From: Naegleria gruberi
Lineage: Eukaryota
Strand: one strand, 5' to 3'
Assembly: GCA_000004985.1 (NCBI GenBank)
Contig: GG739455.1
DNA length: 1,288 nucleotides
A model generated the notes under the pieces. The model saw only the letters and a program-made list of their open reading frames with translations. It was not told the DNA's origin and did no database searches. Position numbers and translations under genes: made by a program. Shown here piece after piece: positions 1 through 1,235 of the stretch (its first letter is position 1; each line of letters begins with the position of its first letter).

Positions 1-1
1 C

Positions 2-67
2 ATATGGCTTTTTAGTGAGATTCGTCAGCAGAATGTTTTTGAAATTATTGAGCTTGAAGAAGAATAA
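2..67 (+). CDS. 3' end of an upstream protein-coding gene (partial, product unknown); C-terminus ...IWLFSEIRQQNVFEIIELEEE*
   Basis: Frame 2 is open from the window edge to TAA at 65-67. Codons are overwhelmingly A/T-ending (ata, ctt, ttt, agt, att, cgt, aat, gtt, gaa x4) and position 1 is G-enriched, as expected for genuine coding sequence in an AT-rich genome. The overlapping frame 3 runs longer (3-122, stop TAA 120-122) but uses many G/C-ending codons (ggc, gtg, ttc, gtc, agc, ttg, aag, aac), which is atypical for this base composition. Only 21 codons are visible, so the frame choice is tentative. Confidence 0.35.
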   Translation: MWLFSEIRQQNVFEIIELEEE

Positions 68-186: not shown

Positions 187-196
187 TTCCCGCCCA
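187..196. repeat. GC-rich 10-mer TTCCCGCCCA; exact reverse complement of 1111-1120 (GC-box-like, GGGCGG core on minus strand)
   Basis: Exact 10/10 inverted match to TGGGCGGGAA at 1111-1120. A GC-only core of this length is very unlikely to recur by chance in 1.3 kb of about 27% GC DNA. Confidence 0.7.
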
Positions 197-210
197 ACAA
201 CAATTAAAAA

Positions 211-381
211 ATGAAAAAGCAAAGAAAAATTTCATCCATCAAAAAAACACGGGTGGCCGACGCATATCCCTTTTGGCCTGAAATCAGCACTGGGAAAACG
301 TGGGCCAAGTTGACTTCCAGAGAAATACATAGGTACATGATACCATATTTTCACAGTATGAGTTATCACGCTAAAAAATAA
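211..381 (+). CDS. Hypothetical small ORF, 56 aa, basic (MKKQRKISSIKKTRVADAYPFWPEISTGKTWAKLTSREIHRYMIPYFHSMSYHAKK); coding status doubtful
   Basis: ATG at 211 to TAA at 379-381; the frame is open from 148. It is the only ORF over 50 codons in the window and sits in a locally GC-richer segment. Against coding: many rare-type G/C-ending codons (cgg, ggg, agg, ccc, gcc, acg), weak G enrichment at position 1, no Shine-Dalgarno-like sequence upstream, and it contains the GC-rich repeated motifs GGGTGGCC and GGCCTGAA that recur in non-coding context at 980-991. Confidence 0.22.
   Translation: MKKQRKISSIKKTRVADAYPFWPEISTGKTWAKLTSREIHRYMIPYFHSMSYHAKK
251..282 (+). repeat. Split copy of GC-rich motif GGGTGGCC (251-258) ... 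GGCCTGAA (275-282), related to the contiguous copy at 980-991
   Basis: GGGTGGCC and GGCCTGAA are each exact 8-mers shared with 980-991. Here they are separated by 16 nt (GACGCATATCCCTTTT). The copy lies inside the putative small ORF. Confidence 0.6.
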
Positions 382-606
382 TTTTGGAAAACTTTTATTA
401 ATTTTTGTATTGTTTTTGACGAGTTATAAATAAATTCCCATTTTTAGAATTTTTTAAAATTGATTAATATGGTATTATCATAATGAATACAGAAATTCAT
501 CAAATAATATGAATCAATAATATAAATTGTGTATTAATGTACTTAAATTTCAATTTTCATTAATTCATTCCAACAAATAAAAGACTAGTTATAAAATAAT
601 AAGAGG

Positions 607-618
607 TGTCAATTGACA
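607..618. repeat. Perfect 12-bp palindrome TGTCAATTGACA (TTGACA on both strands), preceded by AAGAGG (601-606)
   Basis: Self-complementary by direct reading. TTGACA equals the sigma70 -35 consensus on either strand, but no convincing -10 sits 16-18 bp downstream in either direction. It is more consistent with a dimeric DNA-binding-protein site. Confidence 0.6.
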
Positions 619-653
619 ATCGCATTAATAGATCATACTTTATTTTAAATTGA

Positions 654-669
654 TGATGTTTTAACATCA
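654..669. repeat. Inverted repeat TGATGTT-tt-AACATCA (7-bp arms, 2-bp centre)
   Basis: Arms 654-660 and 663-669 are exact reverse complements. The spacer is too short for a stable RNA hairpin loop, so an operator-like DNA site or cruciform is more plausible. Confidence 0.55.
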
Positions 670-685
670 CCTTATAGACATGGTA

Positions 686-693
686 TGTATAAT
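686..693 (+). promoter_or_regulatory. TGTATAAT: -10 hexamer TATAAT (688-693) with adjacent upstream TG; possible extended -10 promoter element
   Basis: Exact TATAAT with TG immediately 5' (not the canonical TGnTATAAT spacing). No good -35 (TTAACA at 661-666 is 21 bp away). Nothing coding downstream within the window. Confidence 0.12.
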
Positions 694-708
694 ATTTTTT
701 CATTTTAG

Positions 709-733
709 TTGGTTGATATCAGATTATCAACAA
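709..733. repeat. Hairpin-capable inverted repeat GTTGATA (712-718) / TATCAAC (725-731), 6-nt loop TCAGAT; right arm contains DnaA-box-like TTATCAACA (724-732, 8/9 to TTATCCACA)
   Basis: The 7-bp arms are exact reverse complements. Two more A-T pairs (709-710 with 732-733) can form across a one-base bulge (G711). An EcoRV-type GATATC palindrome is at 715-720. Confidence 0.5.
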
Positions 734-979
734 GATAGAGCTCAACAAAACATTTTCTCCAAAATATGTTAGTGTTTTCATAAGTAAATTAAAAAAACTG
801 ACGACAAAAGTTGCTAAATAGTGTTTAGAGAATTTTCACGTATACGAACATGTATAACGTATTGTAATAAAAAACTAGATAGGGAAAAACATTTAATTCT
901 AAGCTAAAATTTGAAAATACTGTTATTGACCAATATTTTTCATGTTCTAAAAATAATCAGCTTGTTTGCACAGTAATTT

Positions 980-991
980 GGGTGGCCTGAA
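980..991 (+). repeat. Contiguous copy of GC-rich motif GGGTGGCCTGAA, direct repeat of 251-258 plus 275-282
   Basis: Exact 8-mer matches to both halves of the left copy. It is followed by AGGAG (991-995) but no start codon. Confidence 0.6.
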
Positions 992-1033
992 GGAGACTCT
1001 AAAAAAAATCGCTGGACTTGTAATAAGGAAACC

Positions 1034-1055
1034 ATTATTGGAGGCCTCCAATAAT
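1034..1055. repeat. Perfect 22-bp palindrome ATTATTGGAGG|CCTCCAATAAT with GC-rich centre
   Basis: All 11 position pairs are complementary (checked base by base). It is the longest perfect palindrome in the window and the GC-richest local segment. No T-tract follows on the plus strand. On the minus strand it is followed by GGTTTCCTTATTA (moderately U-rich), so a weak minus-strand intrinsic terminator is possible. A protein-binding or cruciform site is equally plausible. Confidence 0.85.
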
Positions 1056-1060
1056 CATCC

Positions 1061-1079
1061 CTATATTGTGATGATATAG
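1061..1079. repeat. Small inverted repeat CTATAT (1061-1066) / ATATAG (1074-1079) with 7-nt loop TGTGATG
   Basis: 6-bp exact complementary arms immediately downstream of the 22-bp palindrome. AT-rich, so weak. Confidence 0.35.
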
Positions 1080-1110
1080 TTGAGCTTGCTTAATGTCCTT
1101 AATATCTGTC

Positions 1111-1120
1111 TGGGCGGGAA
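1111..1120. repeat. GC-rich 10-mer TGGGCGGGAA; inverted partner of 187-196; close to the Sp1-type GC-box consensus KGGGCGGRRY (9/10)
   Basis: Exact reverse complement of 187-196. The inverted pair does not extend beyond the 10-mer, and there is no matching flanking direct repeat. Confidence 0.7.
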
Positions 1121-1130
1121 TCAAACTGAT

Positions 1131-1235
1131 TTTCCATTTCTTTCAAATGTGTAAATACGTTTTCAACATTTAGAACGTTTCAAACGTCTTTAACGTGTTT
1201 AATCAGTTTAGTTTAATAAATTCTTTTCAAAAATT
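1131..1235. repeat. Degenerate tandem array of about 9-bp units. Core copies are AACGTTTCA / AACGTCTTT / AACGTGTTT (1174-1200), flanked by AACATTTAG (1165-1173) and AATCAGTTT (1201-1209). TTTCAA(A) motifs recur at 1141, 1161, 1178 and 1226
   Basis: ACGT tetramers sit at 1157, 1175, 1184 and 1193 (spacing 18, 9, 9). T-tracts recur every 9 nt from about 1131 to 1229. A 13-bp palindrome ACGTTTCAAACGT (1175-1187) spans two units. The ACGT cores give AACGTT, AACGTC and AACGTG in successive units. Confidence 0.65.

What the first reader, a model, noticed from the sequence alone, without database searches (positions are those of the whole stretch)
187..1120. Exact inverted GC-box-like 10-mers (TTCCCGCCCA / TGGGCGGGAA) bracketing about 934 bp of AT-rich DNA
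A 10/10 inverted match with an all-GC core is far above chance expectation in 1.3 kb of about 27% GC sequence. The arrangement resembles terminal inverted repeats of a small non-autonomous element. However, the match does not extend, there is no target-site duplication, and the second motif family (GGGTGGCC) is in direct rather than inverted orientation. It more likely marks two oppositely oriented binding sites for the same factor, or two members of a dispersed GC-cluster family as seen in AT-rich organellar or endosymbiont genomes.
Basis: partly seen in the sequence, partly recalled or inferred. Interest (0 to 1): 0.55.

Follow-up and report, generated by a model that had tools for sequence, protein, structure and literature searches.

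The report
Paired GC-rich protein-site-like motifs
Two exact, oppositely oriented copies of a GC-rich 10-base word really do sit 914 bases apart in this AT-rich non-coding DNA, but they look like ordinary short protein-binding sites (E2F / GC-box type), not the ends of a mobile element, and nothing here is surprising.

Summary
TTCCCGCCCA lies at 187-196 and its exact reverse complement at 1111-1120. A distant inverted GC-rich 10-mer pair arises in only about 0.1-0.3% of composition-preserving shuffles.

The match does not extend in either direction. No adjacent target-site duplication exists; a non-significant AAAC appears only if both ends are moved 2 nt outward. The 914-nt interior has no coding capacity, no Rfam family and no tRNA.

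No relative of the window was found in any phage, plasmid, E. coli, viral-contig, GTDB-genome, metagenome or protein collection. Copy-number and empty-site tests therefore could not be done.

The 10-mer contains a perfect E2F consensus (TTTCCCGC, left copy) overlapping a GGGCGG GC-box core. It is one of four GGGYGG-core sites (190, 251, 980, 1112; 0.13 expected). These sit in two GC-richer patches, 187-345 and 960-1125, that flank a 15-27% GC spacer.

Best reading (about 0.4): clustered binding sites for one or two GC-recognising factors in non-coding, probably eukaryotic, DNA. The inverted orientation is then incidental or reflects two oppositely oriented regulatory regions. Chance (about 0.2) and a small non-autonomous transposon (about 0.1) remain open. 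Interest is low.

The parts
187..196 (+). Copy 1 of the 10-mer, TTCCCGCCCA. With T186 it reads TTTCCCGC, a perfect E2F consensus. On the minus strand it reads TTGGGCGGGAAA and carries a GGGCGG core.
1111..1120 (-). Copy 2 of the 10-mer, read TGGGCGGGAA on the + strand. The E2F-like match ATTCCCGC is 7/8. It carries a GGGCGG core at 1112-1117.
251..258 (+). GGGTGGCC, first copy of the second GC-rich motif (GGGTGG core). It is embedded in CGGGTGGCCGACGC.
   Evidence: a direct repeat of an 8-mer with at least 7 G/C occurred in 3/3000 shuffles
980..991 (+). GGGTGGCCTGAA, second copy of GGGTGGCC, here fused to TGGCCTGAA.
   Evidence: (family D12)
274..282 (+). TGGCCTGAA, a direct repeat of 983-991. 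On its own it is only marginal: 162/3000 shuffles had a comparable direct 9-mer repeat.
1034..1055 (.). Perfect 22-nt palindrome ATTATTGGAGGCCTCCAATAAT, which holds two inverted CCAAT pentamers around GGCC. It lies 55 nt from copy 2.
   Evidence: arms of at least 11 nt in 10/3000 shuffles
187..345 (.). GC-richer patch 1 (39-47% GC in 100-nt windows). It holds copy 1, GGGTGGCC, TGGCCTGAA and CGTGGGCC.
960..1125 (.). GC-richer patch 2 (35-40% GC). It holds GGGTGGCCTGAA, the palindrome and copy 2.
346..959 (.). AT-rich spacer (15-27% GC). It has no open reading frame of note, no repeat family and no RNA family.
211..381 (+). Longest ORF in the window (56 aa). Its ATG lies 15 nt after copy 1 in an A-rich context. 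It has no credible homologue and the opposite strand is equally open, so it is treated as not coding.

Best explanation
The two 10-mers are two of at least four short GC-rich recognition sites for sequence-specific DNA-binding proteins. They are of E2F/DP type (TTTCCCGCC), overlapping an Sp/KLF-type GC or GT box (GGGYGG).

The sites cluster in two GC-richer patches, 187-345 and 960-1125, within otherwise very AT-rich, non-coding, most probably eukaryotic DNA. Each patch would act as a small cis-regulatory module or promoter-proximal region.

On this reading the inverted orientation of the 10-mer is either incidental, because such sites work in both orientations, or reflects two oppositely oriented regulatory regions. 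The 914 nt between the copies is ordinary spacer or intron-like DNA, not a unit that moves or inverts.

What is shown: the motifs exist, the GC-rich words recur more than chance allows, they match published consensus sequences, and coding, RNA-family and repeat signals are absent. What is inferred: that proteins bind here, which proteins they are, that the host is a eukaryote, and that the patches are regulatory.
For: - The 10-mer pair, the GGGTGGCC pair and the count of five GGCC are each reached by about 0.1% or fewer of local-composition shuffles. The GC-rich words of this window are therefore a small reused vocabulary and not random G+C.
- Four GGGYGG cores occur against 0.13 expected; 0/200 shuffles reached four.
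- The left copy equals TTTSSCGC 8/8 and the right copy 7/8. TTTCCCGCC and TTTGGCGGG are described as the commonest E2F/DP sites in Arabidopsis. TTTGGCGGGAAV is an abundant upstream E2F-like motif in the 30% GC genome of Cryptosporidium parvum (PMC3734150). By my own alignment, the left copy read on the minus strand (TTGGGCGGGAAA) matches that motif at 11/12 positions. TTTCCCGCC is also used as the rice E2F bait sequence (PMC1402289).
- A 22-nt palindrome with two CCAAT pentamers lies 55 nt from copy 2. From general knowledge, CCAAT and E2F sites often accompany each other in promoters.
- Nothing codes: no ORF exceeds 56 aa under codes 1, 4, 6, 10, 11 or 25. The concatenated six-frame query found no protein at E<=10 among 5.8 billion clusters. 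The ORF next to copy 1 hit only tandem-repeat junk among 1.84 billion representatives.
- No Rfam family at E<=1 and no tRNA.
- The absence of extension and of wider similarity between the flanks of the two copies is what independent binding sites predict.
Against: - The loose E2F consensus with one mismatch is not itself enriched: two or more matches occurred in 62/200 shuffles.
- Two independent sites would not be expected to share all ten bases, including the non-consensus 3' CA.
- GGGYGG was defined after looking at the sites.
- No gene, transcription start or host organism could be identified, so 'regulatory' is only an inference.
- No related locus was found, so conservation of the sites could not be examined.
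Confidence: 0.42

Rival explanations
1. Coincidence. Two unrelated GC-rich words happen to be reverse complements in one window out of the many that the first stage scanned, and they have no shared function.
For: - The per-window probability is about 0.001-0.003, which is not rare across thousands of windows.
- There is no extension, no wider similarity and no supporting context.
- No relatives were found that could show conservation.
Against: The same window holds other improbable GC-word features: GGGTGGCC twice (3/3000), GGCC five times (1/3000) and a 22-nt palindrome (10/3000). These are not fully independent of one another. Together with the four GGGYGG cores (0/200), they still argue that the GC-rich words are constrained.
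Confidence: 0.22
2. The 10-mers are the terminal or subterminal inverted repeats of a non-autonomous DNA transposon (MITE-like) of about 938 bp, spanning 185-1122 and inserted with a 4-bp AAAC target-site duplication.
For: - Exact 10-bp inverted repeats bracket an AT-rich interior with no coding capacity.
- AAAC lies on both sides when each end is moved out by 2 nt.
Against: - The two outermost bases of that element would not be complementary (AT... versus ...TC), and the repeat does not extend.
- The AAAC match is expected by chance in about 5-40% of trials, depending on how many boundary shifts are allowed (my estimate).
- There is no subterminal symmetry, and the second motif is in direct orientation.
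- Gapped patterns pairing a motif with its neighbouring motif (TTCCCGCCCA...GGGTGGCC, GGGTGGCCTGAA...TGGGCGGGAA, palindrome core...TGGGCGGGAA) returned only chance hits in GC-rich genomes, or none.
- 934 bp is at the large end of the range for MITEs.
Confidence: 0.1
3. The sites are members of a dispersed family of short GC clusters in an AT-rich organellar or endosymbiont genome. Such clusters serve as recombination or processing hot spots, not as transcription-factor sites.
For: - There are isolated GC-rich words in 15-27% GC DNA, and two motif families each occur twice.
- CpG is not depleted: 22 observed against 25 expected.
Against: - The clusters are only 8-12 nt long and are not locally self-complementary.
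- There is no tRNA, rRNA or other Rfam hit, and no organellar or bacterial protein in any frame or genetic code.
- The 29-mer taken from the window is absent from 185,579 GTDB species genomes.
Confidence: 0.08
4. The two 10-mers pair in a transcript and form a 10-bp helix of about -19 kcal/mol that closes a 914-nt loop. Examples would be bringing intron ends together or defining an RNA processing stem.
For: The two words pair with each other in both the minimum-free-energy and centroid structures of 177-1130, on both strands. Z-scores were -2.6 and -3.2. The duplex energy is -19.4 kcal/mol.
Against: - The energy excess over shuffles (18-24 kcal/mol) is about what the 10-bp helix and the palindrome contribute by themselves, and only 20 shuffles were run.
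- The patches fold no better than shuffles, with z from -0.07 to -1.3.
- There is no Rfam family, no covariation data and no evidence of a transcript.
Confidence: 0.06
5. The 10-mers are crossover sites of a site-specific recombinase, and the 914-bp segment is an invertible switch.
For: Short exact inverted repeats flank a non-coding segment. From general knowledge, the 9-bp repeats of the E. coli fim switch show that such short repeats can suffice.
Against: - No recombinase or any other gene lies in the window, and the sequence has no bacterial character.
- Sigma-70-like promoter matches are not enriched: 12 found against 8.7 +/- 2.8 expected.
- The sequence is absent from all prokaryotic, phage and plasmid collections searched.
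Confidence: 0.04

Closest known systems
E2F/DP binding sites (consensus TTTSSCGC; TTTCCCGCC / TTTGGCGGG)
   Same: The left copy with T186 is TTTCCCGCC, the textbook site, and the right copy is ATTCCCGCC. The sites are short, GC-cored, orientation-independent and stand out in AT-rich upstream DNA. This resembles the E2F-like motif TTTGGCGGGAAV of Cryptosporidium parvum (PMC3734150).
   Different: No target gene, transcription start or host is known. The two copies share two further bases (CA) that the consensus does not require. The loose consensus is not enriched over shuffles.
Sp/KLF GC box and GT box (GGGCGG / GGGTGG cores)
   Same: All four strongest GC-rich words in the window carry GGGYGG. 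TGGGCGGGAA fits 9 of 10 positions of the classical GC-box decamer KGGGCGGRRY, which I quote from general knowledge.
   Different: Sp/KLF factors are metazoan and the host is unknown. The flanks (GAA in one family, CC in the other) differ between the two motif families.
Miniature inverted-repeat transposable elements (MITEs)
   Same: Exact inverted repeats bracket AT-rich, non-coding DNA of under 1 kb.
   Different: The repeat is only 10 bp and does not extend. There is no significant target-site duplication, no second copy was found, and the internal motifs are not mirror-symmetric.
GC clusters of yeast and fungal mitochondrial DNA
   Same: GC-rich islands lie in very AT-rich spacer DNA.
   Different: From general knowledge, those clusters are about 30-50 nt long, self-complementary and present in many copies. 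Here the words are 8-12 nt, do not form local hairpins, and no organellar gene or tRNA is nearby.

Membership tests
E2F/DP binding site | Match to the consensus TTTSSCGC | tested here: met
   186-193 TTTCCCGC matches 8/8; 1121-1114 (minus strand) ATTCCCGC matches 7/8
E2F/DP binding site | More consensus matches than composition predicts | tested here: not met
   Two matches at up to 1 mismatch against 1.09 expected; 62/200 shuffles had at least 2. Only the exact shared 10-mer is improbable.
E2F/DP binding site | Located in a promoter and bound by E2F/DP in a host that has these factors | not testable with these tools
   Source organism and neighbouring genes are unknown. No homologue or related locus was found.
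Sp/KLF GC/GT box | GGGCGG or GGGTGG core | tested here: met
   Four GGGYGG cores at 190(-), 251(+), 980(+) and 1112(+), against 0.13 expected. The pattern was chosen after seeing the sites.
MITE / TIR transposon | Terminal inverted repeats at the very ends of the element | tested here: inconclusive
   10 bp are exact, with 0/10 complementary positions immediately outward and no significant inward extension
MITE / TIR transposon | Target-site duplication directly flanking the repeats | tested here: not met
   Nothing is adjacent. AAAC appears only after moving both ends 2 nt outward, past non-complementary bases, and this is within chance expectation.
MITE / TIR transposon | Multiple copies, or presence/absence polymorphism | not testable with these tools
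   The source genome is not available. A 29-mer and gapped motif patterns found no related locus in the viral, GTDB or metagenome collections.
Organellar / endosymbiont GC-cluster family | Self-complementary clusters of tens of nt in an organellar or bacterial gene context | tested here: not met
   The words are 8-12 nt and the 10-mer has no local complement. There is no tRNA, no Rfam hit and no protein match in any frame.
Invertible DNA switch | Inverted repeats plus a nearby site-specific recombinase and reads in both orientations | not testable with these tools
   The repeats are present. There is no gene in the 1288-base window, and no flanking sequence or reads are available.
Structured RNA with a closing helix | Conserved, covarying helix or a known RNA family | tested here: inconclusive
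   The helix is predicted in the MFE and centroid structures on both strands. However, there is no Rfam match, the patches fold no better than shuffles, and there are no homologues for covariation analysis.

The most novel reading that the evidence does not exclude
The segment 185-1122 is a discrete unit in an unsampled AT-rich genome, either a new small non-autonomous mobile element or an invertible cassette. Its ends are defined by the GC-rich 10-mer, with the 4-bp AAAC as its insertion footprint.
Probability: 0.08. Interest if true: 0.45.

Novelty: new member of a known kind. Interest (0 to 1): 0.14.

Why it matters
It matters little. If the best reading is right, these are further instances of a well-known class of short GC-rich regulatory sites, the kind that stands out in AT-rich genomes.

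The useful result is negative. The inverted pair should not be annotated as the ends of a transposon or as an organellar GC cluster on present evidence.

The window would become interesting only if the source genome showed many copies with the same ends, or both orientations of the segment.

Tried and rejected
1. Coding capacity.
- ORF lists, and translation under codes 1, 4, 6, 10, 11 and 25, gave nothing above 56 aa under the standard codes and nothing continuous under the others.
- A tentative two-exon model (211-332 joined to 973-1076) had no Pfam family and no homologue.
- All 47 stop-free segments of at least 18 aa were concatenated into one query, and no hit reached E<=10.
- An exact look-up of ten ORF products found none in the collection.
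- phmmer of the 56-aa ORF against 1.84 billion representatives returned three hits. All three are tandem-repeat proteins; the two inspected by BLASTP (P0001, P0002) owe their scores to summed weak repeat matches.

2. RNA.
- No Rfam match at E<=1 and no tRNA.
- The two GC-richer patches fold no better than shuffles.

3. Origin and relatives.
- blastn against phages and plasmids (distant mode) and E. coli genomes (near mode) gave nothing.
- The 29-mer from 262-290 is absent from the viral, GTDB-genome and metagenome contig collections.
- Gapped two-motif patterns gave nothing in the viral and metagenome collections.
- In GTDB genomes one such pattern gave 8 hits, all in bacteria of 51-72% GC. 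In viral contigs another gave 33 hits, in contigs of 46-73% GC. None showed wider similarity to the window, so these are chance matches.
- The palindrome 18-mer hit one 31% GC phage contig (L009). There it is the junction of two tandem terminator-like hairpins and is unrelated.
- Full-text searches for the 10-mers and for longer words from the window returned only primers and unrelated sequences.

4. Repeat structure.
- No diverged duplication or long inverted repeat surrounds the motifs.
- Tandem repeats are trivial.

5. Bacterial signals.
- Sigma-70-like sites are not enriched, and there are no intrinsic terminators.

6. Guesses about the host (plant, insect, nematode, microsporidian, Cryptosporidium, fungal mitochondrion) were considered from motif resemblances only. 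None could be tested, so none is claimed.
Full report
**Observation**

The window is 1288 bases and 28% G+C, and CpG is not depleted (22 observed against 25 expected). TTCCCGCCCA lies at 187-196, and its exact reverse complement TGGGCGGGAA lies at 1111-1120. With one mismatch allowed there are no further copies.

An inverted 10-mer match as such is expected in AT-rich DNA, so I asked a narrower question: how often does a shuffle contain any inverted exact 10-mer pair with at least 7 G/C?
- 4/2000 global dinucleotide shuffles and 6/2000 100-nt-block dinucleotide shuffles did.
- 3/3000 50-nt-block shuffles did when the copies had to lie at least 30 nt apart.

It is not extraordinary for a scan of many windows.

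**Anatomy around the copies**

Complementarity stops at once in the outward direction: 0 of the first 10 positions pair. Inward it resumes only as ACA...ATTAA after a 1-nt gap, and the resulting alignment score was reached by 51/300 shuffles.

No direct repeat abuts the 10-mers. If both boundaries are moved out by 2 nt, AAAC flanks both sides. The two added terminal bases are not complementary, however. A 4-nt match among the boundary shifts tried is within chance by my estimate: about 5% for the symmetric shifts and about 40% for all shifts.

The two GC-richer patches share nothing in direct orientation beyond TGGCCTGAA, and that score is below the shuffle mean.

**The rest of the GC-rich vocabulary**

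Only five places in the window hold an 8-mer with at least 7 G/C: 188-196, 250-263, 299-306, 980-987 and 1110-1119. Four of these five belong to two repeated words.
- The 10-mer pair is inverted.
- GGGTGGCC is direct, at 251 and 980 (0/200 shuffles; 3/3000).
- All four carry GGGYGG, against 0.13 expected, and 0/200 shuffles reached four. I defined that pattern after seeing the sites.
- GGCC occurs five times against 0.77 expected (1/3000).
- A perfect 22-nt palindrome, ATTATTGGAGGCCTCCAATAAT, lies at 1034-1055 and contains two inverted CCAAT pentamers. Arms of at least 11 nt arose in 10/3000 shuffles.

These words sit in two patches of 35-47% G+C, 187-345 and 960-1125, separated by 15-27% G+C DNA. 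The order is A> B> ... B> <A, so the arrangement is not mirror-symmetric.

**No coding and no known RNA**

- No ORF exceeds 56 aa. Alternative genetic codes (4, 6, 10, 25) do not open a continuous frame.
- The 56-aa ORF starts 15 nt after copy 1 in an A-rich context. The opposite strand is equally open there: a 63-codon stop-free stretch spans 423-235.
- That ORF has no Pfam family and no exact or near match. Among 1.84 billion representatives it hit only three tandem-repeat proteins. BLASTP against two of them (P0001, P0002) shows scores built from summed weak matches to each repeat unit.
- A concatenation of all 47 stop-free segments of at least 18 aa from six frames, including those that run to the window edges, found nothing at E<=10 among 5.8 billion protein clusters.
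- Rfam at E<=1 and ARAGORN found nothing.
- Sigma-70-like sites are not enriched, and no intrinsic terminator is present.

**Origin**

I could not identify the source.
- There is no blastn match in phages, plasmids or E. coli genomes.
- A 29-mer from the window is absent from IMG/VR, the GTDB species genomes and JGI metagenomes.
- Gapped patterns joining the motifs found nothing, or only chance hits in genomes and contigs of 46-73% GC with no wider similarity.
- The palindrome 18-mer hit one AT-rich phage contig. There it is the junction between two tandem terminator-like hairpins.

A 1.3-kb stretch with no coding signal in any code and no prokaryotic or viral relative suggests nuclear eukaryotic non-coding DNA. 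The G+C-richer patches in AT-rich spacer, several AATAAA words and splice-site-like words are in keeping with that. This is an inference, not a result.

**What the 10-mer resembles**

With T186, the left copy reads TTTCCCGCC, a perfect match to the E2F consensus TTTSSCGC. The right copy matches 7/8.

The literature held here supports the resemblance:
- TTTCCCGCC and TTTGGCGGG are described as the commonest E2F/DP sites in Arabidopsis.
- TTTGGCGGGAAV is reported as one of the most abundant upstream motifs in the 30% GC genome of Cryptosporidium parvum (PMC3734150).
- TTTCCCGCC serves as the rice E2F bait sequence (PMC1402289).

By my own alignment, the left copy read on the minus strand (TTGGGCGGGAAA) matches the Cryptosporidium motif at 11/12 positions. 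The same bases contain the GGGCGG GC-box core. The second family contains GGGTGG, the GT-box variant (general knowledge of Sp/KLF sites).

Against over-reading this, the loose E2F consensus is not itself enriched: 62/200 shuffles had two or more matches.

**RNA-level alternative**

When 177-1130 is folded as RNA on either strand, the two 10-mers pair with each other in both the minimum-free-energy and centroid structures. Z-scores are -2.6 and -3.2 from 20 shuffles.

The energy excess over shuffles is 18-24 kcal/mol. That is about what the 10-bp helix (-19.4 kcal/mol) and the palindrome supply on their own. The patches alone fold no better than shuffles. The pairing is a consequence of the repeat and not independent evidence for a structured RNA.

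**Verdict**

The most economical account (about 0.42) is clustered binding sites of E2F / GC-box type in two small regulatory patches of non-coding, probably eukaryotic, DNA. The inverted orientation then carries no mechanistic meaning of its own.

| Reading | Confidence |
|---|---|
| Clustered E2F / GC-box-type binding sites | about 0.42 |
| Pure coincidence | about 0.22 |
| MITE-like element | about 0.10 |
| Dispersed GC-cluster family | about 0.08 |
| Long-range RNA helix | about 0.06 |
| Invertible switch | about 0.04 |

The organellar GC-cluster alternative is not supported. Interest is low.

Noticed in passing
window 1034-1055: Perfect 22-nt palindrome ATTATTGGAGGCCTCCAATAAT, with two inverted CCAAT pentamers around a GGCC centre. 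Arms of at least 11 nt arose in only 10/3000 shuffles. It could be a dimer-binding site. It forms only a modest RNA hairpin.
   Followed up: partly
window 251-258, 274-282 and 980-991: GGGTGGCCTGAA at 980 appears split at 251-282 into GGGTGGCC, 15 nt, then TGGCCTGAA, as if by a small insertion or duplication. GGCC occurs five times against 0.77 expected.
   Followed up: partly
window 1157-1196: Four ACGT cores lie within 40 nt. Three of them occur as AACGT spaced 9 nt apart (TRF period 9, AACGTCTTT, 2.2 copies). This resembles a small array of bZIP-type sites, but it was not tested.
   Followed up: no
window 253-260 and 298-306: TGGCCGAC reads like the plant C-repeat/DRE core, and ACGTGGGCC like an ABRE-type core overlapping a site II TGGGCC. 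These resemblances are recalled from memory only. They could hint at a plant origin or could be chance.
   Followed up: no
window 348-358 and 965-975: TTTTCACAGTA and TTTGCACAGTA (family D10) both look like 3' splice acceptor sequences. A GT at 333 after CATAG could be a donor. The two-exon protein this implies has no homologue.
   Followed up: partly
window 607-618: A 12-nt perfect palindrome, TGTCAATTGACA, lies in the middle of the AT-rich spacer.
   Followed up: no
window 1-3 and 2-67: The window begins with CATATG, so an ATG reads leftward off the edge on the minus strand. On the plus strand a frame open from the left edge ends ...EIIELEEE* at 65-67, with AATAAA at 118. Neither edge peptide has any database match.
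   Followed up: partly
L009 1730-1790 (IMGVR_UViG_3300028569_000044): This 31% GC phage contig carries two tandem copies of a terminator-like hairpin, GCCTCCAATAATGTGTGATATTGGAGGC. Their junction reproduces 21 nt of the window's palindrome by coincidence.
   Followed up: yes
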